NCBI GenBank assembly: GCA_002633005.1
Contig: NMRA01000040.1
Coordinates: forward strand, 327,362-391,361
Source: Phoronis australis
Taxonomy: Eukaryota; Animalia; Phoronida
DNA: 64,000 bases
Direction: 5' to 3'
The translations under genes were made by a program, and so were the position numbers. Under the pieces are notes generated by a model. That model made no database searches, was not told the origin of the DNA, and was given only the letters and a program-made list of their open reading frames with translations. This document shows, one piece after another, positions 8,201 through 60,701 of the stretch (its first letter is position 1; each line of letters opens with the position of its first letter).

Positions 8201-11200
8201 TCCATATGCCACTTTGTGTAACATTCGCCTTCTTTGACCAGGGGTAAGTGCTGTTTTATTATCTAAGTCATCGCTTGTGCACAGCTCAGGTGTACAATTA
8301 ATATGACCTCTGTGTGCGTGTCTGTTGCATTGGTTTTGTGTCTGGCAGGAGAGACTACTTGAATCAGTTGTTATTGTCGCATTGTCTTTAATGAGACTTA
8401 CAGTTGAGTCACTGATAAGTACAAGTTATTTAAGAATGTTTTCGAAAGGAATGATATTGTATGCTCATTGATATAGTTCATATTCCCTTGTAAAAAGTAA
8501 AATTGTCTGGCAATTTTTAGTACCGAAATGAATTTCAAGGCATAGGAGAGTCAATGCTTGATGTCTTTTGGGCGTCACTTTTTGCTACATAAGTCAATGT
8601 CTTACTTCACCCATAACAGTAAAGTGGCCCTAAGGTGTGATAGCCCTTTTCCTTTCCCGTGAGGCCTCCAAATGCCATTTTTGTCACAGGCAAATTTTGG
8701 TTGTCCACTATTTCTCCACTGTCTGTCCTCCATACTCCATCGTAAGCATCACAATTGCACATTAAACCTGGCTTGTCACAGCTGTTGTGAAAGCCACACG
8801 AGCACATTCTGCTGCCAGGGGGCGCTTCACCCCAGCTTTCCATACGCCGCCCATCCCTCGAAAACCAGTCGATGTAAGTCGTCCCCTTGTGGTGGAACCG
8901 AGAGTTGAAACATTCGTATCTTATCGACTGTGCGCAGTGTTTTGATTTTTTAATAAGAGCGGCTATTTGAGCCATAGAAGCCTGGTAGATCACGTGACGT
9001 GTGTATGTTCTGGCTCCATAGTTATCGCTTCGGGCATTGTGCCGTTGCTCTGTGTTGTGATGTATTACGGTCGCTGGTTCCCCTTTTCCCTCATTCATGT
9101 CACATTCGACGTGAAATTCCTGCACACCACCCAGGCCATCAGGATCAATGACATAGTGTCCACTCTCCAAGTATCCAGCCAGTCTCAGTTCTTTACAGCT
9201 TGACTTATCTGAAAATTGAAAACCAGATTGTTAATAAGTAAACAATACAAATACAACACAAATCTGTCTCTTGTACAGATTCTCCTGATTTGTTGTTTAA
9301 GGCTATATAAGATTTAAAGTCAGTGAAAGTGCATATTTGCTAAAAGTAAAAAGATTAGAAGTTTTTACTTTTAATTACACCAGTGTGCCGTGAATCAGGT
9401 CATATGACCATGGGTCTTTAGTAAAATGTAGCAAAAAAGTTAGATACATGCAGAGCAAAACAACAGTAACAATGACATGACCAAATTTTGTTTGATGTAA
9501 ATGATCAAGATGAAATCTCAACTTGTAATTTGGTTTTAATTTTACGTAACTTTTGAGTTTTTTATTAAAAATCAAAAAAGTTGTTTTATTGCCTCTCTGG
9601 CAAAAGTGGAACATTTCTTTGGTGAACAGTTCATAAAACATAGTATCTGAAAGTTTCATAAGAATTTGATCAGTCGTTAGTGAGATACGATGTTGCAAAG
9701 TCACCCACACGTTATTGCATCACTGATACCTTGTACTGTAAAGCTACTACCAGAGGTCAGTCACTTGTAAGTCAGTACTCTTCACTCCATGAACGCTGCT
9801 TGGTTTNATCCCTCGAAAACCAGTCGATGTAAGTCGTCCCCTTGTGGTGGAACCGAGAGTTGAAACATTCGTATCTTATCGACTGTGCGCAGTGTTTTGA
9901 TTTTTTAATAAGAGCGGCTATTTGAGCCATAGAAGCCTGGTAGATCACGTGACGTGTGTATGTTCTGGCTCCATAGTTATCGCTTCGGGCATTGTGCCGT
10001 TGCTCTGTGTTGTGATGTATTACGGTCGCTGGTTCCCCTTTTCCCTCATTCATGTCACATTCGACGTGAAATTCCTGCACACCACCCAGGCCATCAGGAT
10101 CAATGACATAGTGTCCACTCTCCAAGTATCCAGCCAGTCTCAGTTCTTTACAGCTTGACTTATCTGAAAATTGAAAACCAGATTGTTAATAAGTAAACAA
10201 TACAAATACAATACAAATCTGTCTCTTGTACAGTTTCTCCTGATTTGTTGTTTAAAGCTATATAAGATTTAAAGTCAGTGAAAGTGCATATTTGCTAAAA
10301 GTAAAAAGATTAGAATTTAAGTTTTTACTTTTAATTACACCAGTGTGCCGTGAATCAGGTCATGTGACCATGGGTTTTTAGTAAAATGTAGCAAAAAAGT
10401 TAGATACATGCAGAGCAAAACAACAGTAACAAGGACATGACCAAATTTTGTTTGATGTAAATGATCAAGATGAAATCTCAACTTGTAATTTGGTTTTAAT
10501 TTTACGTAACTTTTGAGTTTTTTATTAAAAATCAAAAAAGTTGTTTTATTGCCTCTCTGGCAAAAGTGGAAGATTTCTTTGGTGAACAGTTCATAAAACA
10601 TAGTATCTGAAAGTTTCATAAGAATTTGATCAATCGTTAGTGAGATACGATGTTGCGAAGTCACCCACACGTTATTGCATCACTGATACCTTGTACTGTA
10701 AAGCTGCTACCAGAGGTCAGTCACTTGTAAGTCAGTACTCTTCACTCCATGAACGCTTGGTTTCCTATTTTAGTTGAGTTTTTCATACATAATGTGTCCT
10801 TTTAAATGCCTCTTTGTAATTGTAGTGAACTTATCATGCGTGCACCCAGGGGGGGCTCGGGGGGCTCAAATGAGCCTCCCGAGCCCCCCATTTGGCGAAG
10901 TGGGCAAAAGGTCTGCCTCAGAGAAACAAAAAGTCCAAGAAAACGAGACAAAAGTCCTCTAAAAAGGCGCAGACATACAGTGAAGGTGGTACCCGTTTCT
11001 TTAGTCCTCCCACTATTTTGTCAGCAAAAGGTCCACATCGCCAGAAATTCAAGCCCCCCCCCTATATTAAAGGCTGGATGCGCACATGCTTATTAGTAAC
11101 CTCTGATCAGTGCCAGTCTCTAGCACAGGTCAAGCTTCCTTCAGACGCTTCAGCATGCTAAAACTGAAAGAATGATTACAAATGTGCAAAAATCTCGGGC

Positions 11201-14200
11201 TACAAAAGATCCTAAGAGAGAATAAAACTTAGAACATGCTTACATTTATGTGATCCTGTTCTACATTGGTAGTACAACAGTTCTGTTTTCCTTGTGTCGG
11301 TCCTGCATGCCTCCAGTGCTGTCTTGGTCTCATTCAGCGAAACTCGATCGTTGTACTTGTCGTTTAGCAGAATCACCGACAGCTCTTCTTGACCTTTAGC
11401 CTTCTCTGATAATTNGCACCCAGGGGGGGCTCGGGGGGCTCAAATGAGCCCCCGAGCCCCCCCATTTGGCGAAGTGGGCAAAAGGTCTGCCTCAGAGAAA
11501 CAAAAAGTCCAAGAAAACGAGACAAAAGTCCTCTAAAAAGGCGCAGACATACAGTGAAGGTGGTACCCGTTTCTTTAGTCCTCCCACTATTTTGTCAGCA
11601 AAAGGTCCGCATCGCCAGAAATTCGAGCCCCCCCCCCCCTATATTAAAGGCTGGATGCGCTCATGCTTATTAGTAACCTCTGATCAGTGCCATTCTCTAG
11701 CACAGGTCAAGCTTCTGTCAGACGCTTCGGCATACTCAAACTGAAAGAATGATTATAAATGTGGAAACATCTCTGGCTGCAAAAGATCCTAAGAGAGAAT
11801 AAAACTTAGAACATGCTTACATTTATGTGATCCCGTTCTACATTGGTAGTACAACAGTTCTGTTTTCCTTGTGTCGGCCTTGCATGCCTCCAATGCCGTC
11901 TTGGTCTCATTCAGCGAAACTCGATCGTTGTACTTGTCGTTTAGCAGAATCACCGACAGCTCTTCTTGACCTTTAGCCTTCTCTGATAATTGTTTAGATT
12001 CGCTGGAACACTGAGCGAGTTGTCTCGTTGTCGATTCCAACTGTGTTTGTGCGTCTTCCAACTGTCTCCTCAACTCGTCATTTTCTTCACCGAGATCTCT
12101 TAGTTGAGTGGATAAGTCCCTGGCATCTTGTTGATAATTTTGGCTGTCAACGTCTTGCAGTAGTCGCAATGAGGCAGTGTGTTTCGATAGGACTGCGGCT
12201 AGCAGTAGCCACAGGCTCCTTTGTGCTGCATGCATCCTGTGTTATGTTTTGCCCAATTCTAATTTCATTCTATGTTGGACAGTTATTGGTGCATCTTAGC
12301 AGATAACACGTGAGTGAATGTCTTTATCAGTGTTTACTGATTTTCTAAGTCAATGGGAAAGGTTGTCTTAGCCCGAGATAATAGAGCTTATATTATCAAA
12401 GGTTGTGGGCCCGGTCTAAACTGAGAGCTGAGACAGTCATGACTTGTATGTTAATTTGTTCACAGTTCATTAACTTGGCTCGGTTGTTGCTGTAACTCCA
12501 GTTTGAGACAGTCCCTTAAATTTGGGACACCAGAATTTAAGTAGAAAGTGAATTTTGATTCTAAATATTGAGCTGTAGGCAATTTTGGCATTCATCATTT
12601 ATTGGACACTACATTTTGTGTCAACAGTACAGTTTAAAAATGAATTTAATTGGCAATTTTTAAAATCAGGGAAACTAGTGCCTGCATATTGTTTTCAGCC
12701 ATCCTCGTAGTGTGTTTCATTAATGTGCATGATCGTTTGTCATTTATCATGCATCGGGAATTTACAACCAATATATTGACAATTTCTAAAATTTGGTACA
12801 CGCTCCAACCATTAGCAAAACAATTGTTGTTTCAATCTCCCTAACTAGAGAATTTTTACTTTAAGTCAGAATGTAAAAAATAATCATCCAATTTATTGTT
12901 TTCATTCTTCTAAAAAATGCAGCATTGCATTTTCATTTACAAACTTACGACCATCTTAGTTGAAGCAACTACCTGTTGTATTGCCACAGCTGGATTGCAC
13001 AAATGGTTAAAATTAAGGACTAATTTTCTTCCTTCTTGGTTTTTGTTGAGAAGTTTGAAACGTTGTGTTTTATTTTAAAAAATGTATCCTATGTTTCAAA
13101 GAGGGTGGTAGTGAATGAGTGAATGATATAAAATTAGATGACATTATGTTCAATACGCGGTATTATTTATGAACTGATTTCGCTCATCGCCTACCCAATA
13201 ATCTTTGTCAATATACTTGTTTATCTGTTTTTTGTTTTGTTTTGACAGTTCTAGTGTCAACGAATTTGTCCAGGGCCAGCTATGTTTTCAAAGAGCACTA
13301 AGATTTGAGTTATGTTAATCCTTTAGAAAACACTTCAATTTCAGAGCTTTTGTAGACTGAGGTTGTCATGTAACTCCCTGACTGTGTGCCTAATGAATTT
13401 TGAGGTCCCTTCTCATTTATTGAGAGAACTGAGTGCACTGTTAGGAATTACAGTAGCTTTCTTTTGTGGAAGATTAAATAACCTGTCAATATTTGCAAGC
13501 AAAGTGTAAAGGCCAACGTACTTACGACAATTCTTCCGTAATATAGTATGCAATATGGCCGACTAGAAAAATCCTATTTATCAAATTTCTTCGCAAAAAT
13601 AAAATTATGAAAAATTGAATCTGTTTGTAGCATGGTTGGTACTGTGTAGATGTCTTGAACCAACTTTTAGTAAATTTTCCATTTTCAGTAAAATGGAAAA
13701 ATGACAAGTTTGGCAATTATTTTTGTACTTGGAGAATTGTTGCAGCTCAAACTGATGCCTGCACCAAATTGATTTGGCACACTTCCATTTGGAGTGGGTC
13801 GATTAGCCAAACTGATGCCTGCACCAAACTGAAGCTTCTCAAAATTACTCTCAGTGGTTTTCAGGGTTTTTTAACAGTTATCAGAACAGAAATTAACGAC
13901 AATGAGTGCAGGTTGGTGAGTAATCGTTTCTCAGGACATTTCCCTGTGTGATTAATCCATATGGCCTGCATGTGGGAGCACTCATTGTCATCAATTTTGG
14001 TTCTTATAAGCATTAAAGAAATCCATAAACCACTTTCAGTAATTTGGGAACTCACAGTAGCTTGAGTTTGGCTTGGGCATCAGTTTGGCTCACCAACCAG
14101 CACCGAATTTAGGTGTGGCAAATCAATTTGGTGCAGACATCAGTTTGGGCTGCAACAGAATTACCGCATCATTTGCATTCATGAGTAAACTGATGAGTAA

Positions 14201-17200: not shown

Positions 17201-18565
17201 TACTTAACCATATCCATAACCAGTCAGATGTGTGTAGCACCTACACCTTTTACCATAATCAGAATGTTGTGCCAATCAGACATGAGTTAACGCCCATACT
17301 TTACCATAACCAGGCGTGCGTTCAGTAGACGCTAGGACCTACGCTAGGACCTAGCTAAAACCTAGTCAAAGTCACGTGTTCTAATTTAAAATGCACGGCA
17401 ATATCTCACGTAGTCTCGCGAAGTCTTGCTTTTTAGCGAGGTCCTAGCGTTACTGAACGGGAGGCAGTATGTGGCGTGTCAATCAGAAGTCTGTTAACAC
17501 CCACACTTTACCATAACCAGCATGTGGTGTGTCAGACACAATTGTGTTAACGCCCACTTTTTATCATAACCAGTATGTGTTGTCAGAAGTGTGTTAACTC
17601 CTACTCTTTCACTTACAGGGGGAGATTTAAGTGGAGATAGTGAAGAGGAAACAACGATGATCTTGAGTCAGGAGGAGCTGGGCTTGTCAAGTAAAAGGTA
17701 ACCTTTCTAGATTTAGCACAGAGGATAGTTTAAAACAGTTATGGCCCTGTTATCTTCAAAAAAAACTTAGTTTAGACCACTTACCATTATATAGTTGGTC
17801 TCAAATTGTCCCGTTCTCAGTTTTGAAGGGATGTCAGGGTTTGGAGCAGTTCATTGTGTCTGTGACCAGGGCTATTAGGTTGGCTTCAGGTGACTGGTCA
17901 TTTTGTGCTTCAAGAGTGGCTGCATTTACAAACTGTTTGTTCTCTCCAAGCCAAGAAATCACTTCACTTCCAGTTTTGCAACTATTTGTTGTCTAAATCA
18001 AAAGTTACTGTTATTGCAGAAGGTGGATTCTTGCCAGTTTTGTCATGTCATCATCTTGGCACATCATATAATATAGCTATTGATGTAACAGTCATTAAAA
18101 TATGCAAAGGGTAATTTGGAACAATCCTCAGGGGGCTAGAGATTTATATGTGAGGACATCCATAATACTATAGTGATCAGGAATTGAATTTTACTCAAAT
18201 CAGAAATAGGACTATGGTTGTCGTTTGTAGTTTGAATGTTCGCTGAAATCGGCAATAGTTAGATATTACGTGCCCACATTTGTAGAACCAGTTTGATGCC
18301 CTTTATTAAGTGGAGAAAATTGGTTGTCAAAATGCAGGCACATTTTATCCAAATATTACCCTAAAAATGTTGATTGTAACTAATTAACTTTGCATACAGT
18401 AGAGTTGGCTTGGGACTTTTTGATACAAATGGGTGGGTTTTGATGCAGCTCAACTCTATTGCGTTGTTTGTGACTATTTTTCTTCGTTCCAGTTCGCCAC
18501 GAGATCCTGTCTCCAAAAAAGATAGTGTAAAGAAATCAAAGAAAGTGAAAAAGAAAAAGACTTGA
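2241..18565 (+). CDS. EXOSC9: Exosome complex component RRP45 (EXOSC9 / PM-Scl75), 13 coding exons, about 424 aa
   Basis: GT-AG exons in consistent phase: 2241-2306, 4468-4562, 5195-5314, 5739-5841, 6861-6958, 7437-7476, 8161-8243, 14223-14355, 14994-15082, 15605-15776, 16895-17018, 17619-17697, 18493-18565 (1275 nt). Translation MRETPFSNCEKEFIL..RLDGRQAYDYR..VELSPMASPGFESGR..CIDTESLCIIAGEKVWQLRIDIHTLNHEGNLIDA..ALAHFRRPDVSVSGEEVTV..FLLVDPT..NKHREICT is the RNase PH-fold RRP45 sequence. It ends in an acidic DSEEE..MIL segment and a Lys-rich C-terminus. Confidence 0.96.
6095..7730 (+). repeat. Three related copies of a ~150-200 bp intronic repeat (about 6097-6245, 6305-6500, 7526-7730)
   Basis: Shared AATGTCCAAA..GGC..ACTTC..AACATT..AAATG..TTCTCCAA..AGGAAT..TTGCATGA.GCGCT. 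Confidence 0.55.
8607..12235 (-). CDS. Secreted protein: signal peptide, coiled coil and CASPR/neurexin-IV-type fibrinogen-like domain (about 338 aa), nested antisense in EXOSC9 intron 7
   Basis: Exon 12235-11821 (MHAAQRSLWLLLAAVLSKHTAS then a heptad-rich helix; donor T|GTAAGC, phase 1) joins in phase to exon 9208-8607 (TTTTCAG|AT). This gives YKSSCKELRLAGYLESGHYVIDPDGLGGVQEFHVECDM..CAQSIRYEC..W.SRDG..WG..CSCG..C..CNCDA..WRTDSG..LPVT..GYHTLGPLYCYG*. A partial second copy of the exon (10163-9808) is cut by an N. Confidence 0.8.
8853..11991. other. Two probable haplotype-overlap assembly duplications (8853-9806/9808-10763 and 10842-11414/11416-11991)
   Basis: Each pair of near-identical copies is separated by exactly one N (9807, 11415). 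Confidence 0.75.
10835..11088. mobile_element. MITE with terminal inverted repeats and 5-bp TSD (CTTAT)
   Basis: Ends CATGCGTGCACCCAG / CTGGATGCGCACATG, flanked by CTTAT on both sides, with G/C-run subterminal palindromes. A duplicate copy starts at 11416. Confidence 0.7.
13738..14157. mobile_element. MITE with TGT...ACA termini and 4-bp TSD (GAAT), Ginger-like signature
   Basis: About 45-bp imperfect TIR TGTTGCAGCTCAAACTGATGCCTGCACCAAATTGATTTG / CAAATCAATTTGGTGCAGACATCAGTTTGGGCTGCAACA, with GAAT on both flanks. Confidence 0.65.
17150..17600. repeat. Degenerate ~50-bp tandem repeat in EXOSC9 intron 11 interrupted by a short palindromic MITE (about 17319-17459)
   Basis: Recurrent TTTACCATAACCAG..GTGTTAACGCCCA units. 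The inserted element has CGTTCAGTA...TACTGAACG ends, with related copies at about 38190-38327 and, reversed, about 57033-57160. Confidence 0.6.
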
Positions 18566-32534: not shown

Positions 32535-35500
32535 CAGTCCCGTAGCCAGGCGGGGTTCGGGAGGTTCGATCGAACCCCCCTCCGAGGAAAATGTCCAGCC
32601 CTTGCCTATCCGATAGGATAAGATAGGGTTTACTAGATGGAAAGAAATGTTGTAACTACAAGTTCTACTAACCACAATCATAACCGAGTTAATATTAATT
32701 TTGAATTTGCTTCTGATGTAAAGCGCTTCACATAATCATCGGGTCGTATCCGGCGCGAGTGGTGACTGCGTAGATGACGATTAGGGGAGGCTTTATGTTA
32801 TTCATTGGCCGAACTAGTGCGTGGTCTCTACACCATAGGGTAACAAGGAAGTATATAAGTAAATGTCTATGCCTAGCCCAAACTATATAGCATCGAGAGA
32901 GATCCCCAAAAGTGGTGCTGTGTGAATGCCTTAAAATCGACCAAGAAACAAAACAGCAGAAAATGGGTTTGTTGTTTGCTACTTTGTTGTACTTTCTAGC
33001 ATAGTATGGGTAAAGTGCAGGCATTTTCAAATTTCGAATTGAAAGTGATCGTCAAATATCTTGATCATCAAGTGTCCACTTTGGTTGTGAATTGATGGAT
33101 TGACATGCATGTGTGTACACGTGTGTGCGTTTCCGTTCTTTTAAATTCAGTACACGCCGACGGTAAGTTCACTGAATACTCTGACTGTCGTTTCTCAAAA
33201 GTCAGACATTTAGCTACCGCGTTTTCTTTCACTGGGAAATTCCCGCATGTTCACATTTTTAGGCAAGTCTAGACCTAATTAAAATTTTGGTCAATGAAGA
33301 AAGTCTTCTCTTGTCAATTAATGTCAATGGTGCACAGCCCCGTAGATTTCATACGAGCAACAATTTTGATGGAAAAGAATTCCAAGGTTACATATACATG
33401 ACCAAAGGTTCATTACTACGATGGTTCGTTACCTTCGAAAGTTCACTTCGAATGTCCACAATTCCGAAACCAGAACTACGACAGTTCAGCTCTGTTTTTT
33501 TTTTCTAATGATTCAGAACTGAAAATGAATAAGGTACGCATTTTTGTCCATTTAGTAACCATTTAAATGGTGTGCAAGAGTGGAATAGTCCTGAAAAGAT
33601 TGATTTGCACTGTTTATAAAAGAGCTCACTTCCAATCATTGGCAATCGTGATTCTTGAATCTAACCAAAGATACTATAAAATCTTTGATCTAACTAAAGG
33701 CTCGTTCTCAATTAGCGACAACATGTGGGACACGATTTCGGGAGGCGGCGACCAACGACGGTTTTAAATTTCAGAAGTCTGAATGAGACTTTGTGAAGAC
33801 TGGGACAGGGTAGCTTACTAACTACATTTAGTTTCGACCCGGCGGTGCGAGTAGTTTCGGTGGGTGAGGTTGAAGCGCAGCTGCCCTAAACTTTTCTGTC
33901 GCGCTGTGAAATGATGCGATCTTATCATGGGATTGGTGAACGTATCGTGGTTGATAATTCATCAACAATCCTACTTCATATTCTTTTAGAAATGCAAGTA
34001 CGTACTCACTCAGACATGGGGACAATTCCACATGCATGTGAAATCCAAACAAAGTGGTTTATTAGCTGGGTGTATTATTGTCGGTACAGTTGCAATGACC
34101 GAAGTGTAGCTNNNNNNNNNNNNNNNNNNNNNNNNNNNNNNNNNNNNNNNNNNNNNNNNNNNNNNNNNNNNNNNNNNNNNNNNNNNNNNNNNNNNNNNNN
34201 NNNNNNNNNNNNNNNNNNNNNNNNNNNNNNNNNNNNNNNNNNNNNNNNNNNNNNNNNNNNNNNNNNNNNNNNNNNNNNNNNNNNNNNNNNNNNNNNNNNN
34301 NNNNNNNNNNNNNNNNNNNNNNNNNNNNNNNNNNNNNNNNNNNNNNNNNNNNNNNNNNNNNNNNNNNNNNNNNNNNNNNNNNNNNNNNNNNNNNNNNNNN
34401 NNNNNNNNNNNNNNNNNNNNNNNNNNNNNNNNNNNNNNNNNNNNNNNNNNNNNNNNNNNNNNNNNNNNNNNNNNNNNNNNNNNAACCCCCCTCCGAGGAA
34501 AAGGTCCAGCCCTTGCCTATCCGATAGGATAAGATAGGGTTTACTAGATGGAAAGAAATGTTGTAACTTCAAGTTCTACTAACCACAATCATAACCGAGT
34601 TAATATTAATTTTGAATTTGCTTCTGATGTAAAGCGCTTCACATAATCATCGGGTCATATCCGGCGCGAGTGGTGACTGCGTAGCTGACGATTAGGGGAT
34701 GCTTTTTGTTATTCATTGGCCGAAAGCGCGTGGTCTCTACACTATAGGGTAACAAGGAAGTCGGAAGTAAATGTCGATGCCTAGCCCAAACTATATAGCA
34801 TCGAGAGAGATCCCCAAAAGTGGTGCTGTGTGAATGCCTTAAAATCGACCAAGAAACAAAGCAGCAGAAAATGGGTTTGTTATTTGCTACTTTGTTGTAC
34901 TTTCTAGCGTAGTATGGGTAAAGCCGTGCAGGCATTTTCAAATTTCGAATTGAAAGTGATTGTCAAATATCTTGATCATCAAGTGTCCACTTAGATTGTG
35001 AATTGATGGATTGACATGCATGTGTGCCGTACACATGTGTGCGTTTCCATTCTTTTATATTCAGTACACGCCGACGGTAAGTTCACTGAATGCTCTGACT
35101 GTCGATTCTCAAAAATCAGACATTTAGCTACCGCGTTTTCTTGCACTGGGAAATTCCCGCATGTTCACATTTTAGGCAAGTCTAGACCTAATTAAAGTTT
35201 TGGTCAATGAAGAAAGTCTTCTCTTGTCAATCAATGTCAATGGGGCACAGCCCCGTAGATTTCATACGAGCAACAATTTTGATGGAAAAGAATTCCAAGG
35301 TTACATATACATGACCAAAGGTTCGTTACTACGATGGTTCGTTACCTTCGAAAGTTCACCACTTCGAATGTCCACAATTCCGAAACCAGAACTACGACAG
35401 TTGATTGCTCTGATTTTTTTCTAATGATTCAGAACTGAAAATGAATAAGGTATTGCATTTTTGTCCATTTAGTAACCATTTACGTGGTGTGCAAGAGTGG

Positions 35501-36579
35501 AATAGTCCTGAAAAGATTGATTTGCACTGTTTATAAAAGAGCTCACTTCGAATCACTGGCAATCGTAATTCTTGAATCTAACCAAAGATACTATAAAATC
35601 TTTGATCTAACTAAAGGCTCGTTCTCAATTAGCGACAACATCTGGGACACGATTCCGGGAGGCGGCGACCAACGACGATTTTAAATATCAGAAGTCTGAA
35701 TGAGACTTTGTGAAGACTGGGACAGGTTAGCTTACTAACTACATTTAGTTTCGACCCGGCGGTGCGAGTAGTTCCGGTGGGTGAGGTTGAAGAGCAGCTG
35801 CCCTAAACTTTTCTGTCGCGCTGTGAAATGATGCAATCTTATCATGGGATTGATGAACGTATCGTGGTTGATAATTCATCAACAATCCTACTTCATATTC
35901 TTTTAGAAATGCAAGTACGTACTCACTCAGACATGGGGACAATTTCACATGCATGTGAAATCCAAACAAAGTGGTTTATTAGCCGGGTGTATTATTGTCG
36001 GTACAGTTGCAATGACCGAAGTGTAGCTCATTTTCGCAGTTACACCTCAATCAAGAAATTTTAGACATATTCGGAGTAATGAATCTTCAGAGTGGTGAAC
36101 CTTCGAAGTAGTGAACCTTCGGAATAGAACCTTAGGAATAGTGGGCTGTTCCCATTTCCAGCGACGTAATGAACTTTTAATAAAAATACAATCATATAAA
36201 AAAATTACGTCAGTCATTCTTGGACTAAATATTGCTGTCCGAGTATGTAATGAGGTCTAATCAATCATTTAAAAAAGCCAGATTTGAATGTTTGGCAGAA
36301 GGTAACGCGAGAACGTTAGGCTATATTTATGGATCGCACTACGTCCGAATTTGATTCCTGTTGTTTGCAAGCAACCGTCGCGACATCCTCATTTCTGGTG
36401 TTACAAATTCCGTTTTATCTCAGTAACATAGAGCTGAAAGCTGCCGTGAATACAGATTTCTCTTCATCATAATTAAACTGTGTCAAGCGCATAACCAAAA
36501 ACTCGAGTGTAGACGTTTGCAAAAGGTCCACCTTTCTAGAAATTCGAACCACCCCCGCGCAATGCTGGCTACGGGCCTG
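32535..36579. mobile_element. Longer non-autonomous TIR element, inflated by an assembly duplication and gap
   Basis: TIR CAGTCCCGTAGCCAG / CTGGCTACGGGCCTG (14/15 match). It contains nested inverted ends AATGG.GCACAGCCC / GGGCTGTTCCCATT with short CTTCGAA-type repeats. No clear TSD. Confidence 0.55.
32573..36028. other. Assembly gap (34112-34483) flanked by a probable haplotype duplication (32573-34111 / 34484-36028)
   Basis: The ~1.54-kb copies end and begin exactly at the N run and differ only by SNPs and small indels. Confidence 0.75.
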
Positions 36580-37363: not shown

Positions 37364-38449
37364 GGAAACCACCTCCACATATGGCCTATATGTGAAAGTT
37401 TACTGGCCAGAGGCTGCAAACCCACTGGCCCCGGGCCACCGTGTACTTCGAACACTGGCTGTGACGGCCACTTTTTGAACAATCGTTTGGGGAGCTTTAG
37501 CTCCGTGGTCTTTTGAAGGAAAATAAATATAAATAGATCTTGCCAAGGGCTATCTGAAAAGTGTCAACATCGCCAAATTTTGCTGTCTAGAGCGCTTTCA
37601 TTTTGTGCTTTTGCTGTGAATGAAGTACTATTTGAGTATTAATTTTGTATGTAGATATGTATTTGTGTGCGAAGCTGAGATGCACGACCCTCGCACGATG
37701 TCTGGGACATCCACCATGACGACCTTGACACAATTTAGAGTCAAATTTCTGTCGTCGTTGTGAGAATGCCATCACGTTCTGCTGGGGGTGTAGATAGGTC
37801 TGTAAAAATAATTCTTACGTCTGGTCTAGTTTTATTTACTTTTAATCATGGGAGGCGCACCATAGGGGACTGGGGGGCTATAGCCCCCCACTTTTTTCAG
37901 TGCTGCGCCGCCCATGCTACTGAATCGATAAATTCATCAGTGCTCTTGGATATCGACCTAACAGGTTTTCGTGCCTTTGCGTGGTTAAGGAACGAACATA
38001 TAAGATTCATCGATTTGGTTAATTAAACTGCCAAGGCAGGGCTGCACGTCATTTTACTTATTGGGGAAATTCAATACAAAGATGTGAATCAAAGCAAATT
38101 GTTTTTATTGCAACATCTTTATGTCAGCCTATTCAAACTGAAGAAATGATTAAGCATGTTATACAATAAACAAGACAAATGCTGGATAGAGTTCAGTAGC
38201 TTCTAGCGGCTGGAAAAATCTAGACAAAATCACGTGTTCTCAATTAAAACACATGGCAATATCTCTCGTAATCTCGCGATGTCTTGTTTTTAATGAGGTT
38301 CTAGCTTAGGTCTTAGCATTACTGAACTTTACCCTGTTTTCATCAGGTTAGTCGTTTTTAAGCAAATGAAGTTACATTAGAGTATTCGTTGTAAAGTACG
38401 TTTCATTTCCGATTGTGGGTCTTGATTGGTACTCGAAAGCCACTTCTTT

Positions 38450-41400
38450 TTAACGACCCTTTAATAACGAGATTCTGCAGCAACATCGCGGTGCTCTGAC
38501 CCAAATCCTGGCCCGGAACAGTTTGCCATTCGGTAAGACGCGACAAACTGCACTTCTGTAGAATCTGTAAGTGCGGGTGTAACACTTGCCGCTTTTATTT
38601 CTTAGTCTGCATCTAAGCCTGCAAATAGATGACAGAACCAGCTCATCAGTATCAGTACTTGTTTGTATGTCACACTGATATGATTTTGCCTTTTTTCTGA
38701 GGTACAAGCTGTATACTTGAACTAGCGTAATGGACTTCATACTTTTCAACATTAACACCATGGGTTTGTTACATAAAACAAGTCCGAAGATGGGTGATGC
38801 GCTCCACATAACTATTTCTGAAAAATAGTTGAATGTCACGTGAGCAACAGTGCAAAGTTTCTGAGAATATACATATAACCGTTAGTTAATAATTTCTGTA
38901 AATTGTTTGTAGGATGTGATTGACACATAAATTCTGGCAAATCTTTCTGTATTAAGCCTTAAGTTGCTCTCATGAAACAGACCCCATGTCCAACACATAG
39001 CAGTCAGCTACATGTACCTGACTGAAACAAGATGCTTTCACAGTTAGTAAATTTCTCATGCGGTCTGTTTGAAACATTAGTCAGTCATATGTTTTAACTC
39101 AGTAACCAATGATAAAAGTTGTCTAACTAACCAATGACGAAACTTCTCGTTCCTAGCCCATGCCTCAGAATTCAGGTGAACGCGCCTTACAGTTTTTGAA
39201 ACTTTCTTGGTGGTGGCCCTCCACCCCCCTGTCCCGTAGGAGAGGGATACCAGTTTCTCAGCTCATCCGAGGCACAAATAATCACACCATGAGTGTACCG
39301 CATATCCGTGCTCGTTCTTCTAAGAAAGCGGGACCCCCTGGCGATGGCCGGAGAATAGACCGACCGGAACGTCGTGACAGTGTAAATAGACAAGAGGTCG
39401 GTGTAAATAGACCAAGAGATTTTAATAATAGTAACACGTCACCACCTCAGAGAGGTTTTAGAAAGTCATTTCAGGCAGTCTGTGCGCACGACAGCAAAGC
39501 TTATGAATTTTTGTTTTGACAGTGAATTTTCGGTTATTCCATATGATTCGCTCCCACGTCGATCCAACCAAACAACTCCAAATAGGCCTACTATACGCCC
39601 GGCCTGTGCCAGGGGTATCGATAACGACTAGGGCTATGGAAGAAAGAAGCCAGAGTTTCAGCATTCATCGGTTTCACATCTTTCTATAATAATAGTTGGC
39701 TACTGTGATGCTGTCTGCCGTTTCTCTAGTAGTACATAAAATGCCCAATCACTTACGCCCACCATAGGCGAACAGCCCCTAATTACAATCGGGTTATTGG
39801 AATATAGGATTCTCACAATAAGAATGCAGATCTGGCGCTCGAGTTGGAGAGGGACAGTAAGAAGGCACGTGTGAAATTTTTTCAGACGATAGACTTGACA
39901 TCAAATCTGCCTTCTGACCGGACAACATGTGAACGCTGCTTCAGATCATTTACCGTTACAAAACTAGTTTTAACTTGTGATTTCGGAAGAACCGACAGCG
40001 TGTTATTGTTTGAAACCAAGCCGACTTAGAGCTGCAGGTGATTTCCTTATCCCTTGCCAGAGAGTTGTCCCTGATGGAACGGAGTCTCTGTCTTGTAGGA
40101 ACTCCTTAATTTTGAAAACTATAACAATTTACTGCATTTAACAAACGTTTAGTTAATTCGTTCTTTCCCACTGCAAGTTGACTCGATGAATAATTGGGGC
40201 TCCAAAACATTAAACCGAAAAAAATCAGCATTCCGTCGAAGAAAGTAAATTTTGATTTAGAACTTTTAAAAATAAAATAAAGTTGGTTTCAACTTGTTCC
40301 TTACTCAGACAAGAATTTATCAGATTTCTCAGATTTGACTCAGATGTCGCTTTCGGGCTAATAAGCACCTCAATCATTTTCGTCACTCCAGGTAATTGTC
40401 TAACGAAAGTCCTTAAACACCAAAAATAAGATTTGAATTAAATGGATCATTATCGGCGAGCAATCTGATTTTTGGGGGGATCGAAATCGAATCGACAACT
40501 ACCGCGGTTGCAGTTTACTTCTCTGCCCGCAGAGCTAATTTAACTTAACTTGACAAATGGCAGAGTCTTTTAAGCGTATATATCACCGACCTTGACCTCA
40601 GGTAACATTGGCAAACAATGGTGATAACTGGCGATTTGTAATCAAATCACAAAACCCAAAATGTGTTGCTCTAATGTTCCAATCAAAACTAAAAGCTTCA
40701 AGAAGTCTATTTCATTCAACAATAATCACAAAACGTTAAACAGATAATTTTCATGAAAAGTAGGAAAACTGGAAACAATTGTACCGCTAGATGAAAGAGG
40801 GGCTACTTTTGGTGATCATTGGGAGAACGAGAGCAGAAGATGTGCACGATTTATTACTAATTTGATAACACCGTCAATCCAAAATCGACATCTTTACCTC
40901 GCTAAAATTATCTTTCTGCCATCAGAAATCAGAAGAAATTACTTCCAAGTTAAAAATTACAAAAATGCAGGATTTAGAATTTCATATACAGTTATCCCTG
41001 TTGCCCGTTTTCCTTCAAATTCATCTCAAAGATTCTTACCGAAACAAGTTTGTAACTATCCTACTGAACTGTCATGTATGTAAATTTGCTCTGTAAAATC
41101 TTCACAGCTCAAGTATTCTCGGACTTGTCTCTATGGTAAAGTATCCGAGTTTAAATACATGTTGGCGAAGTATGCAATGAATCTGGATTATTGGGGCCAC
41201 ATGAAAAGTGTCCTGGAGTCCCGAGGTGTAAATACGGTACTGTTTAGGAATCACTTCTAACCTGATTAAGTTGCACGTTTAGATCAGTCTCACAGCGGTA
41301 ACTGGTCTAAGTCAGAAGCTAAGTTTTTGTGCAGGTTGGTGAAGAGCTGCTTTGGCACGTGAGCCTTTATAGTATACGCGTGGTTCAAAATGCAGGCCTG

Positions 41401-42935
41401 ATTTTTTTGGTGTGAAATTTCAAAAACAAGTGAACATTTAATAGCTACTTACCCATTCTTTCTGCAAACGTGACTTATGACTGGTCGGAACCTCGTACAA
41501 ATGTAGACGCGTCCGTTCTTAACAATTCTCACCAAGCGAATGATCCGGGTCAACCTTGGGCAAGTCCCAGGCCAATACCTCTTTTGTTCATCAAGATTGG
41601 AGGCATCCAGGGAACGAACTAACTGATCTGATTCGTCTTCTTCTTCACTTGCATCTTCGGCAGAACGCGCGTCAAAGTCTGCCTGCTCGTCGCTTTCGTT
41701 TTCTTCCAAAGAACGGACGTCAAGATCTGTCTGATCATCTGTATCGCCGTCTAGGGTGCCGTAGTTTTCGAATTCCTCTGTTCGGACCAACCCCAGGACA
41801 CAACAGAGCAGAGCGCATAGAAAGATCTATAAGTACAGTATATCGCTAGCTTTAGTAACCAAAATATTGCACCAAATATATCATGTCATTTTTAATCCTG
41901 CCCACCAGTTTGTAAGAGAAAAACTGCATCGCGGCCAGGACAGGCGTCAAAGCGATGCATTTACTAATGGTTGCCTTGCCAAGTTAACGAATCAAATGGC
42001 ATTGTTTGTGTCAGTTTTCACACAGAGACGTGTGCATCCCGGTATGTTCATGTTGCTGTAGCTCGGACTACATTGGAACGACGGTTTGAGCACTGGCTGT
42101 ACATCTTTCAGTGGACTTTGTGCACGGAATAATAAAAATAATCATCGTCCACTTCATTTCATTTAAGTGAACTCGCACGCTTAAGCATTTTAGAAACAAT
42201 AATGAATTCGCAGCAGCGTCTCGGGAGAATCAAATCGGTTGAATTTTGTTAGAAATACAGCAAACCCCGCTTTGCAGAATCATTTTTGAAACACTGAAGT
42301 TCAACAGCAACGAACTAAGTTGCAATCTGAATAAAGAGCAAGTTGATATCATTTTTTCTCTGACTGGAAGTTTTTGACTATTTATAACACCTCGAACACG
42401 AAAAAGTGCCGAAGACGACTGTTTTTATTTTTTTTTAATTCTTAACCTTGTAAAGCTACCTTAAAACAGAAACCAGCATCACATTTTCCATGCTAAACGA
42501 AAAATTAAACTGAAATTTACAGCACATTGAGCATATTTGACAGAAAACGAGTGTATCATAACAAATAAAATTTGTCAAAGAAAGGCTGCAAACTGTCTTA
42601 GTACAGTTGAACTTCACCGCCCTCGAGGAAAGTTTACACTGATCTGCCTGTCTTCAAACAACAAGAATTACAAGTCATAACGATTAGTACCATTACACAT
42701 CACATAATTTTTAACACGAAAAGACGTGAATAACGAACACCAGCTGAATGCACCATTGCTATTACTGTTTGTCGGCGTAGTGACAAAATGTAAATTTTCA
42801 AGAGAAAATCATGGAGGATAATTTTAAAACAAATAGCAAGGAAAGTTCAGGATGATTCGTAATTCAGAAATCCTTCATGACACCGACTTATCAAAAAAAC
42901 ACATTAACACGGTCTAAATTCCTTACCGGTTTCAT
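38450..42935 (-). CDS. Secreted 183-aa prepro-protein with acidic pro-region and highly cationic cystine-knot-like (neurotrophin/Spaetzle-like) mature domain
   Basis: Exon 1 42935-42927 (ATG AAA CCG|GTAAGG), exon 2 41826-41453 (TTATAG|ATC..AAT GG|GTAAGT), exon 3 38618-38450 (TTTGCAG|G..TAA); 552 nt in frame. Protein: MKPIFLCALLCCVLGLVRT / 67-aa D/E-rich pro-region ending KR / YWPGTCPRLTRIIRLVRIVKNGRVYICTRFRPVISHVCRKNGLRCRLRNKSGKCYTRTYRFYRSAVCRVLPNGKLFRARIWVRAPRCCCRISLLKGR*. A minus-strand AATAAA lies at 38109-38104. The fold call is inferred from Cys spacing only. Confidence 0.8.
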
Positions 42936-42997
42936 CTCGCTAGAGGGAGTAGCTGGCCTATTTGTCGATAGAGATAGCTTGCTAATCGATAACAAAC

Positions 42998-43030
42998 TAG
43001 CTGATATGAGACTACACGTACCAATTTATA
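42998..43030 (-). promoter_or_regulatory. TATA box and initiator-like element of the cationic cystine-knot gene
   Basis: Minus-strand TATAAA at 43030-43025 and a TCAG initiator-like sequence about 28 nt downstream (A at 43002), about 67 nt before the ATG at 42935. Confidence 0.55.
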
Positions 43031-43386
43031 GAGGTGTGCCGTTACGGTCCACATATTTTCCCAAAAGGGCTGTGCTAATTCATTGCACGTTCCTTAAAAT
43101 TTACTACCCATTAAGTTCAACGTGGCTATTAATAAACAGTTTAATCATGTCTATGCACGTATTTTGTGAATGCACCAACAGCCGCACCATATGAGTGCAA
43201 ACGCGCATATTAAAATATGTGTCGATGTAATAAAACACATACGTTTTCTGTTGTTTTATAGCTGTGGTCAAAGCTAATAACTTCAAGAATTAAATCCCAC
43301 CCAAACATAATCCCAACCCCCCAAAAATGTGTTCTTTAGTCGCAAAAATGATAAATGTCCCTTAATATCAACAAGGAGTGTACGAG

Positions 43387-57945: not shown

Positions 57946-59556
57946 TTATCGTAAAAAATTAAAAATAATAGAGTTATGAGTTGATTCGCTCTCAATCTTC
58001 TTTATGATTGGCAGCATGTTTTGTGGCCGGCTTTTTGTGTCATCCGACCGGCACAGCAATCCTAGAAACAGGAGGGTGTGTATCGCTTCTTTGTAAATGG
58101 CAGGAGCTTTTTCTTGCAAGGCATGACAAACGTCGGTAATGCTAATTCCAAACGAATAAACATCCGTGAGCACGGATGTTGACTCCCCGTCGCGAACCTC
58201 GGGTGCCAGGTGCTCACATGTGTTGCTGCCGTATCTCAATAAAGAGACATCTGTCAGTAGTTACTTGTACTACCTAAAGACACACTATCAGTAAAACAAC
58301 CACTGCGTCTAGCATCGTTTACAAGAGGCCCGTGTCTTGGCAACCTTGCTACAGCAAAATAACCAGCCTTAACAAACTTAAATGATCTAAGTGTTAGCTA
58401 ATTCTTAACACAGAAATCGCCTGTTTTGAATAAGGAACAAACTAAGAGCATTTTCATGAGAGTAGGTGCACTAAAGCAACAGTTGGGTTCATTAGATCTA
58501 AGCTGTTTACGCTTCACTTGCGGCAAGAAATCGTCGCGTGTGGAACGGTAACAGCGAATTTTATCCCATGATTCAGCATCTCGAGCTCGCCGAGCAATCC
58601 CTTCGATTACTTCCATTATTGCAAGTGAACGCTAATAAGCGCGAGAAGCATTCGCATTTCCCGTGGTATTGCGTGATTTTGAGTTTTCGTTAGACGCTTG
58701 GGTTTACGGAACGCTCCCAGCTTGAACAAGAAATACGTATCATTCCTACTATTGCAATATGAAATATAATCAAATTTTATCCCTGGCAATGCCGGAATTG
58801 TAAGTTTTAACAATCAATCTCTTCAGTGTACATGTTACAATACTATTTTTCCATCTATTTTATATTTTCTTCTAGTCGTTTTACTTTTTTGGTTGATTTG
58901 AATTGAAACTAGACAAGATTTTTCGACTTTTCGCTTTTCTTTCAGATTATTCTGGGAATCATATGGATTTTCAACGACCATTGATAACCGAGAGAATGCA
59001 AGGACACGCGGCGTTTGTTCTTAACAAATCCGCTTACCGAAAACCTTTCTTTATGGTCGCATGTCCAAAATCAATCAATTTCACTTTGTTGGTTTGTCGT
59101 TCCACCATTACATTCTCGGTGTGGAAATCATTAAGCAATATATCTCTTCTGTGAGCGCGATGAACTGCTTTTGCGGCTTTCAGTAATACCTTCACAATTT
59201 CTGGAATAGGCAGCGATACCTCGCTCACATTTTCAAGATGGTGGTCTATGTAATCTGCGAGTGTAAAACCGTCTATTAGTTCCATGACAAGACAAACTAT
59301 CGGCGGGGCTTCGTCGTCAACCGTTGGTGTCAAATACAAGCCGAACGGTTTAGGGTCGCATCTGTACCGAGTAAGGGCCCGTAGACATCGGTATTCTGTC
59401 TCAGCTGTTGAGTTCACGTCGTTTTCATTCACGTAATTTTTTACACAAACTTTTTGCTCAATACCCGTAGCGTCATTTACGAACGTCCCAAGGCACACTT
59501 TGCCTGAAATTCCTTCGCCGATCACAGCGTAATCCTCGTTTCCTCTTACATCGTAT
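57946..59556 (-). CDS. Divergent protein kinase catalytic domain (two exons seen; 5' start exon unresolved)
   Basis: Exon 59556-59038 (IGEGISGKV Gly loop, VCVK, alphaC Glu, LVMEL, LNDFHTEN catalytic loop, IDFG; donor CG|GTAAGC) joins in phase 2 to 58234-57946 (HLAPE, TDVYSFG, C..RP). The second acceptor is a weak GAG. There is no in-frame ATG before the Gly loop. Confidence 0.72.
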
Positions 59557-60701
59557 CTATAAAGAGAAAAAAAATGTTGAACAAACTTAGATTTGTCAGT
59601 TTAGCTAGTTGGATGCGCTGGCTCAGATTCTTCAATTTCGCGAAGGGGCCGCGCGATTACTGCTAAGAGCGTATGAAGCAGCTTGGTCCATAACAGTGGC
59701 GGATCTACGTTTTCAGTAAGGAGGGGTTTAGGATTACCGCAAAGGTCGAATGCGAGGCGCGTGGAGACGAGCGGGGGGAGGTCGGGAGGGGTTTTTATAG
59801 CCAAATATTGAAATTTCCATGCATCCTGGTACATTTCTGGCACTTAAAAGGTCTCTGGAGTTTTTCGTGAGATAATTTAAAACCTTTCTCGATTGTCGTC
59901 ACATGAACTTTGCTCATAAGTTTCGTGAAGAAATATTTGTGCACATCTGGGTGTGAGTCACGCCACCAGCAAAAATTTTTGTTGGAACATCTGAAAACAG
60001 TTTCACGAAACCAAAACATTCTGTACACCGTGTTAAAAAGATATACAGGACCAGTTCGCAGAGGGACCAGATGTACACTGAGAGTACACAGTAAAAAGAC
60101 TGGCCTGGTCTGTCACGAGACCAAAAGTACACCTGTGCTTTTTATCCCTTTAAAAATAGTCGATCTGTCGTTGGACCAAACAGTGCTGGCTGAGATAAAT
60201 AGTTTTACAAAGCACAGTTTGGAAAAAGCATCACAAGACTAATTCGCCGAGGGACCAGAAATACACTGAAACTCAATATTTACACAAATCAAGCTGGCTT
60301 GGTCCGTCGCGAGACCTAAAGTGTACTATGCAAAAAAAATTGTATTGAAAACTTCTCTCTAGACACACAGTGGTTGATCATACGTGTATTTTACACATCT
60401 GGTCGTCAACTGCTGCGAGAGGTTGTCTAGGAAGGGTTTTCGCACCGTTCCGTAGTACTCACTGGAAGAAACAAATATTGAGTACAAATTTTACTACGCA
60501 CTACGTGAAATAGATTTTGGATATGAAGCAGATAGAGCCAAGTGGAAATACAAACCAGAATCAGTTTCTGTGCGCTCGTAGACCCTCTGCTGTACTGGGT
60601 AAATTTGGCGTGTAGAAAAATAATTTCTATTTCGTTTTCATTGTACAATAGCATAAAAAACCGACATTATATACAAACTGTGTAGAATTATCACTTATTA
60701 C

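What the first reader, a model, noticed from the sequence alone, without database searches (positions are those of the whole stretch)
38450..43030. Hidden 3-exon gene for an extremely cationic neurotrophin/Spaetzle-like cystine-knot precursor
Seen in sequence: a TATA/Inr promoter, a 9-nt first coding exon (MKP), two GT-AG introns in phase and a downstream AATAAA. These give a signal peptide, an acidic pro-region, KR and a 97-aa mature domain with 9 Cys (positions 6, 27, 38, 45, 54, 67, 87, 88, 89), about 27 Arg/Lys and no Asp/Glu, ending GR (possible amidation). Established: the NGF/Spaetzle/coagulogen cystine knot has the layout C..[hairpin]..C-x(5-9)-C..C.T..[hairpin]..CxC. Here TCPR / VCRKNGLRC / KCYTRTY / RIWVRAPRCCC parallel NGF VCDS / KCR..GC / YCTTTHT / WRFIRIDTACVC. 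Inference: a cystine-knot ligand scaffold driven to AMP-like charge, either a Toll/Trk-type ligand or a growth-factor fold repurposed as an antimicrobial, toxin or matrix-binding effector. The extra Cys27/Cys67 could link the two NG-turn hairpins, and Cys88 could mediate dimerisation. The ORF track splits it into two unrelated-looking ORFs.
Basis: partly seen in the sequence, partly recalled or inferred. Interest (0 to 1): 0.88.

Follow-up and report, generated by a model that had tools for sequence, protein, structure and literature searches.

The report
Orphan ultra-cationic knot-patterned secreted protein
This is a real, spliced and expressed animal gene with no detected relatives, whose product is predicted to be secreted and cut to free an extremely positively charged, cysteine-rich 97-residue domain that likely folds like a growth-factor cystine knot and likely serves as a defence or surface-binding molecule, which would be an unusual reuse of a hormone-type scaffold.

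Summary
The gene is real. RNA reads span both predicted introns at the stated GT-AG sites on the minus strand: three stranded runs of one study plus a contig from a second. The 183-aa product has a hydrophobic leader, an acidic pro-region (net -22), KR and a 97-aa mature domain with 9 Cys, +27 and no Asp/Glu. No homologue was found, but every search used single exons.

The cystine-knot call is plausible but unproven. One Cys set fits a growth-factor knot and both NG turns are centred in its fingers (1 of 100,000 shuffles, ranges set after the fact). The whole domain could not be folded, and single-sequence models of the halves gave no support.

It is not a neurotrophin or Spaetzle member: it has no Gln at all, carries extra Cys and shows no sequence match. 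Alleles differ at up to 5 of 97 mature residues with the Cys kept.

Best reading: a pro-region-masked cationic defence or polyanion-binding effector on a knot scaffold. Function is untested.

The parts
43025..43030 (-). TATA box
   Evidence: sequence; no RNA depth beyond the bin ending at 43031
42999..43004 (-). Inr-like site, probable transcription start
   Evidence: 26 nt after the TATA start; X1 contig begins at 42983; exact start not mapped
42927..42935 (-). coding part of exon 1 (3 codons)
41827..42926 (-). intron 1, 1100 nt, GT-AG, phase 0
   Evidence: 15, 17 and 2 joint reads plus X1 contig
41453..41826 (-). exon 2
   Evidence: stranded depth 8-45 in X2-X4
41779..41826 (-). rest of the predicted signal peptide (residues 4 to about 19)
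   Evidence: most hydrophobic 12-mer of the protein starts at residue 6, mean hydropathy 3.0; cleavage site inferred by eye, SignalP not available
41584..41778 (-). acidic pro-region with three Arg-Ser motifs
   Evidence: residues 19-86 net -22, pI 4.05; RS at 41, 57, 74
41578..41583 (-). Lys-Arg, predicted convertase site
   Evidence: sequence; cleavage inferred
41453..41577 (-). mature domain residues 1-42 (Cys6, 27, 38; NG turns at 21 and 41)
38619..41452 (-). intron 2, 2834 nt, GT-AG, phase 2
   Evidence: 25, 14 and 8 joint reads plus X1 contig
38450..38618 (-). coding part of exon 3: mature residues 42-97 (Cys45, 54, 67, 87, 88, 89; NG at 72; terminal Gly-Arg, possible amidation signal) and stop
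38104..38109 (-). AATAAA, candidate poly(A) signal (ATTAAA at 38294 is an alternative)
   Evidence: use not shown

Best explanation
An expressed three-exon animal gene encodes a predicted secreted prepro-protein whose acidic pro-region likely masks a +27, cysteine-rich 97-residue domain until cleavage at Lys-Arg frees it, likely as a growth-factor-type cystine knot that would bind microbial membranes or other polyanions as a defence effector. Shown: transcription, splicing, composition, charge asymmetry and allelic variation. Inferred: secretion, cleavage, C-terminal amidation (Gly-Arg end), the knot C6-C54, C38-C87, C45-C89 with two long NG-turn hairpins as fingers, a C27-C67 bond tying the fingers, a C88 interchain dimer, and the defence role.
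For: Splicing and strand are shown. The pro-region at -22 nearly balances the mature domain at +27, pI 11.6; anionic pro-pieces that neutralise a cationic mature peptide are described for marine AMPs (PMC10608444, passage). Exactly one six-Cys set fits the knot spacing. 1061 of 100,000 shuffles give the spacing and 1 of 100,000 gives it with both turns centred; with Cys fixed, 11 of 100,000 give both turns. Beta-forming residues make up 31-53% of the four putative strands. Mature-domain alleles differ from the window at 5 of 97 residues in X1 and 2 of 97 in X2-X4, with no listed change at a Cys, the KR or an NG. That fits a fast-changing effector on a fixed frame better than a conserved hormone.
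Against: No homologue, profile or structure match supports the fold. AlphaFold2 without an alignment modelled mature residues 4-42 as one long helix at pLDDT 69, not a hairpin, and exon 3 at pLDDT 50; both are fragments, so this is weak. None of the four putative strands shows significant alternating amphipathy (p 0.16-0.79), unlike typical membrane-active hairpins. The spacing ranges in the shuffle test were recalled and set after seeing the sequence. No kappaB, AP-1 or C/EBP-like consensus lies in the 565 nt upstream of the ATG. No close paralogous transcript appeared at 80% likeness, whereas defence peptides often come in families (own knowledge). Allele counts are too few to show positive selection (about 6 replacement against 3 silent changes on 223 and 68 sites). 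Basic surfaces on knot proteins commonly serve heparan sulphate binding in signalling (PMC6154108).
Confidence: 0.4

Rival explanations
1. It is a cationic, cysteine-rich antimicrobial or toxin-type precursor with some other fold (for example separate disulfide-closed hairpins or a partly helical domain), and the knot pattern is coincidental or only partly true.
For: Same precursor logic. Helical model of the exon 2 part. No knot-family profile or structure hit. Six RxxR motifs and one RK inside the mature domain allow further cutting.
Against: Unique knot-compatible Cys set with both turns centred. Cnidarian AMPs listed in PMC12496222 are ShK- or knottin-type (passages), and Pfam gave no such hit on the exons.
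Confidence: 0.25
2. It is a divergent cystine-knot signalling ligand or antagonist (Spaetzle3/4-, Trunk/PTTH/IL-17-, noggin- or DAN-like in action), whose charge holds it on heparan sulphate near its source.
For: Signal peptide, pro-domain, cleavage and a roughly 100-aa knot with a spare Cys match the Spaetzle layout (PMC9427763). Spz3 and Spz4 carry two extra Cys and Spz4 is immune-induced (PMC2586362). Knots tolerate great sequence divergence (PMC11087794). Sclerostin and gremlin bind heparin through basic finger residues (PMC6154108).
Against: No acidic residue and no Gln in the mature domain. No CxGxC ring. No orthologue detected. Five replacement differences between alleles in 97 residues.
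Confidence: 0.22
3. It is a structural, adhesive or clotting component of a secretion (mucus, cement, egg coat or coagulogen-like gel): a polycation stored neutralised and released to cross-link polyanions.
For: Extreme charge, little strand amphipathy, 7 Tyr/Trp and an odd Cys count. Coagulogen is a knot protein used in clotting (PMC2586362).
Against: Moderate read depth in X2-X4. No repeats. The Gly-Arg end suggests a processed bioactive peptide (own knowledge).
Confidence: 0.13

Closest known systems
Spaetzle / neurotrophin cystine-knot precursors (Spz1, Spz3/4, DNT1, NGF, coagulogen)
   Same: Signal peptide, pro-domain, protease site, about 100-aa C-terminal domain with six Cys in knot-compatible spacing ending CxC, and a spare Cys beside the last knot cysteines.
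   Different: No conserved Gln, no acidic residues, three extra Cys, short strongly acidic pro-region, Gly-Arg end, no sequence or Pfam match on the exons.
DAN/CAN family (sclerostin, gremlin), glycoprotein hormones, bursicon
   Same: Basic knot fingers that bind polyanions. One extra Cys in each finger, 11 before knot Cys2 and 13 after knot Cys4, which from memory is the fingertip disulfide position in these families; not confirmed in a paper.
   Different: These have an eight-residue ring; here Cys38 and Cys45 are separated by six residues, giving an 11-residue ring.
Marine invertebrate AMP precursors with anionic pro-pieces (centrocins, strongylocins; Cys-rich cnidarian AMPs such as damicornin, aurelin, hydramacin, periculin)
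   Same: Signal, anionic pro-piece and cationic Cys-rich mature peptide.
   Different: The pro-region is about 65 aa against 15-30. The mature domain is 97 aa, +27, with 9 Cys. Folds reported for the cnidarian peptides are ShK or knottin. No similarity detected.
Noggin / Trunk / PTTH / ancestral IL-17 (T1A) knots
   Same: Knots with Cys 1/4, 2/5, 3/6 bonds and little sequence conservation; ring and heel lengths are close to noggin's and PTTH's as recalled.
   Different: No sequence or profile match on the exons; much more basic.

Membership tests
Cystine-knot growth-factor superfamily | six Cys spaced to allow I-IV, II-V, III-VI with terminal CxC | tested here: met
   unique set 6, 38, 45, 54, 87, 89; 1061 of 100,000 shuffles; ranges recalled and post hoc
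Cystine-knot growth-factor superfamily | two beta-hairpin fingers between Cys I-II and IV-V | tested here: inconclusive
   NG turns centred, but fragment models gave a helix and low confidence
Cystine-knot growth-factor superfamily | actual knotted disulfide connectivity or structural match | not testable with these tools
   the spliced mature domain could not be folded as one chain; fragment searches uninformative
Neurotrophin / Spaetzle | signal peptide, pro-domain and cleavage before the knot | tested here: met
   layout per PMC9427763; cleavage itself inferred
Neurotrophin / Spaetzle | conserved Gln in the knot domain | tested here: not met
   no Gln in the 97-aa domain; feature from PMC2586362
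Neurotrophin (NGF family proper) | only the six knot cysteines | tested here: not met
   9 Cys; feature from PMC4079206
Neurotrophin / Spaetzle | Pfam NGF or Spaetzle profile match | tested here: inconclusive
   0 families at E up to 10, but only single exons were scanned
Neurotrophin / Spaetzle | dimerisation and Toll/Trk/p75 binding | not testable with these tools
   needs protein
DAN/CAN, glycoprotein hormone, TGF-beta (eight-membered ring) | eight-residue ring (Cys-x-Gly-x-Cys plus CxC) | tested here: not met
   Cys38-x6-Cys45; ring size; the CxGxC motif itself is recalled
DAN/CAN, glycoprotein hormone | extra Cys pair linking the two fingers | tested here: inconclusive
   Cys27 and Cys67 lie one in each finger; reference positions recalled; bond not shown
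Cationic Cys-rich AMP precursors | signal, anionic pro-piece, cationic Cys-rich mature peptide | tested here: met
Cationic Cys-rich AMP precursors | amphipathic structure | tested here: inconclusive
   no significant period-2 amphipathy in 4 of 4 putative strands; no reliable 3D model
Cationic Cys-rich AMP precursors | antimicrobial activity or induction on challenge | not testable with these tools
   run conditions are not given; no kappaB consensus upstream

The most novel reading that the evidence does not exclude
First member of an undescribed lineage-restricted family in which a growth-factor cystine knot, with a Spaetzle-size ring and a DAN-type fingertip disulfide, has been turned into an acid-free, +27, pro-region-masked antimicrobial or cytolytic effector: a hormone scaffold recruited directly into innate killing.
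Probability: 0.3. Interest if true: 0.82.

Novelty: new variant of a known kind. Interest (0 to 1): 0.6.

Why it matters
The gene is a validated, expressed orphan that ORF-based annotation splits in two. If the knot is real and the protein kills microbes, it would add the growth-factor knot to the folds used by antimicrobial effectors and link the Spaetzle/coagulogen/IL-17 immune knots to direct killing. It would also be a rigid, disulfide-stabilised polycation worth testing as an antimicrobial lead. If it is a ligand instead, it defines a new knot subfamily with mixed Spaetzle and DAN features.

Tried and rejected
No whole genome is held, so paralogues outside the window could not be sought. 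Within the window, tblastn found only the gene itself (next hit E 0.27).

Homology searches, all on single exons:
- Pfam: 0 families for 3 of 3 and 3 of 3 stretches.
- 5.8-billion set: exon 2, none of 30 candidates at E up to 1; exon 3 against longer proteins, no candidate.
- 1.84-billion representatives with exon 3: 3 hits, all long repeat proteins without the Cys frame; rejected as summed weak matches.
- ESM Atlas: no usable hit twice.
- PDB sequences: only chance-level matches, E 0.15-0.48.
- Metagenome contigs: 595 and 463 pattern matches, none confirmed. Viral contigs: 28, none confirmed.

One search listed no holder on record as RNA; laying the runs settled expression.

The organism was not identified. 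A neighbouring exon's best relatives cluster with stony-coral proteins, but at only 42-45% identity, too far to assign a taxon.

Earlier scan notes: nothing by sequence, place or first words; 3 unrelated items.

Literature: searches listed no paper on such a protein by title or abstract start, 0 of the 20 listed (of 413) held 'cystine knot growth factor'. Searches did not yield residue-level Cys spacings, so those are recalled. The alignment supplement of PMC4079206 is a .doc that could not be read and may bear on the family assignment.

Rejected: artefact or pseudogene (spliced, open in all alleles seen); neurotrophin proper; eight-membered-ring families.
Full report
Observation. The minus strand carries the gene as described: TATAAA at 43030, an Inr-like site at 43004, ATG at 42935, exons 42935-42927, 41826-41453 and 38618-38450, and GT-AG introns of 1100 and 2834 nt. 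The 183-aa product has a hydrophobic N-terminus, a pro-region of net -22, Lys-Arg and a 97-aa mature domain with 9 Cys, 21 Arg, 6 Lys, no Asp, Glu or Gln, pI 11.6, ending Gly-Arg. The most acidic 40-residue stretch in all six frames of the window lies in exon 2 and the most basic in exon 3.

Expression. Four public runs were laid. Intron 1 is spanned by 15, 17 and 2 reads and intron 2 by 25, 14 and 8 reads in X2-X4 (one study, about 18-19% of each run read), all with the first mate on +, i.e. minus-strand RNA. An 851-nt contig of X1 (second study) holds all three exons. Its 5' end is 42983 and no depth lies beyond the bin ending at 43031. The 3' end is not resolved because the UTR overlaps repeats. 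At 80% likeness only this one X1 contig lay on exons 1-2, so no close paralogue was seen in these runs.

Variation. Against the window, X2-X4 differ at mature residues 44 and 75, and X1 at 19, 44, 51, 66 and 75; residues 44 and 51 were read from the loose-end lines. No listed change hits a Cys, the KR or an NG. One search left 221 difference rows unshown; by its totals at most one X1 difference in exon 3 and its UTR is unaccounted for. Roughly 6 replacement and 3 silent changes on 223 and 68 sites show a tolerant sequence, not positive selection.

Relatives. None was found in Pfam, the 5.8-billion protein set, 1.84 billion representatives (3 hits, all long repeat proteins, rejected), the ESM Atlas, PDB sequences, metagenome contigs or viral contigs. 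All searches used single exons and the collections lean towards microbes, so this is weak evidence of uniqueness. No genome is held. The window is animal DNA. A neighbouring exon's best relatives cluster with coral proteins at 42-45% identity, which does not fix the taxon.

Fold, evidence for. With permissive, recalled spacing ranges, exactly one six-Cys set fits a growth-factor knot: 6, 38, 45, 54, 87, 89. The NG at 21 lies at the midpoint of Cys6-Cys38 (22.0) and the NG at 72 at the midpoint of Cys54-Cys89 (71.5). Of 100,000 shuffles, 1061 gave the spacing and 1 gave spacing plus both centred turns; with Cys fixed, 11 of 100,000 gave both turns. The ranges were set after seeing the sequence, so these numbers overstate significance.

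Fold, evidence against. A single-sequence model of mature residues 4-42 was one helix at pLDDT 69, exon 3 alone reached pLDDT 50 and matched nothing, and the putative strands show no alternating amphipathy. The whole domain could not be folded as one chain. I put the knot at about 0.6-0.65.

Family. It is laid out like Spaetzle (pro-domain, cleavage, knot, spare Cys; PMC9427763, passages). It lacks the Gln conserved in all NT/Spz knots (PMC2586362, passages) and has more than the six Cys of the NGF family (PMC4079206, passages), though Spz3 and Spz4 do carry two extra Cys. The ring is not the eight-residue ring of TGF-beta/DAN proteins (PMC6154108 and PMC8377005, passages). Cys27 and Cys67 sit one in each finger, at positions that from memory match the DAN/glycoprotein-hormone fingertip bond; passages of PMC3843708 confirmed only the third knot bond of sclerostin. 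Knots tolerate wide divergence (PMC11087794, passages). A true annelid neurotrophin keeps over 40% identity to human NT3 (PMC4812194, passages), which the PDB sequence search would be expected to detect even on halves (inference). So it is not filed under any named knot family.

Mechanism. Shown: transcription, splicing, charge asymmetry. Inferred: secretion; storage with the acidic pro-region neutralising the polycation, as described for sea-urchin AMP pro-pieces (PMC10608444, passages); cleavage at Lys-Arg; trimming and amidation at Gly-Arg (own knowledge); folding into a two-fingered knot, possibly dimerised through Cys88; binding of anionic microbial surfaces or glycans. I give this 0.40. 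A defence peptide of another fold gets 0.25, a heparan-sulphate-tethered ligand or antagonist 0.22 and a structural or clotting polycation 0.13. Against a defence role: no kappaB-like site upstream, no visible gene family, weak amphipathy.

Novelty. The precursor logic is familiar from AMPs and toxins; the cnidarian examples in PMC12496222 (passages) use ShK or knottin folds. Searches listed no paper on a cationic growth-factor-knot effector of this kind, judged from listings only, in a library lacking most subscription journals. The alignment supplement of PMC4079206 could not be read. Verdict: a real orphan gene, new variant of a known kind, interest 0.60; 0.82 if both knot and killing are shown (probability about 0.3).

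Noticed in passing
window 6000-12241, minus strand: Probable multi-exon secreted protein: a signal-peptide-like start and coiled coil (11789-12241) followed by repeated COLFI-like exons (Pfam E 0.00017, below cut-off). Best relatives cluster with Pocillopora and Porites proteins at 42-45%.
   Followed up: partly
window 8853-10763, 10842-11991 and 32573-36028: Near-identical tandem duplicates (96-98%) flanking N gaps at 9807, 11415 and 34112-34483; probably uncollapsed haplotypes in the assembly.
   Followed up: no
window 59034-59600, minus strand: Protein kinase exon (Pkinase E 1.3e-12) whose catalytic loop reads DFH where an arginine or leucine is usual (recalled).
   Followed up: no
window 37850-37916, 39270-39430, 43250-43290: Short dispersed repeats present in many transcripts on both strands; the 3' UTR stretch 38215-38305 also matches 17357-17448.
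   Followed up: no
window 38546-38548: Mature codon 66 differs at all three positions between the window and X1 (Val against Trp), with an intermediate silent form in X2-X4; it lies next to Cys67.
   Followed up: partly
window 41600-41710, minus strand: The pro-region holds three Arg-Ser motifs 16-17 residues apart, possibly internal repeats or single-Arg processing sites.
   Followed up: no
window 13738-14157: Long imperfect inverted repeat (69% over about 440 nt), possibly a MITE-type element.
   Followed up: no
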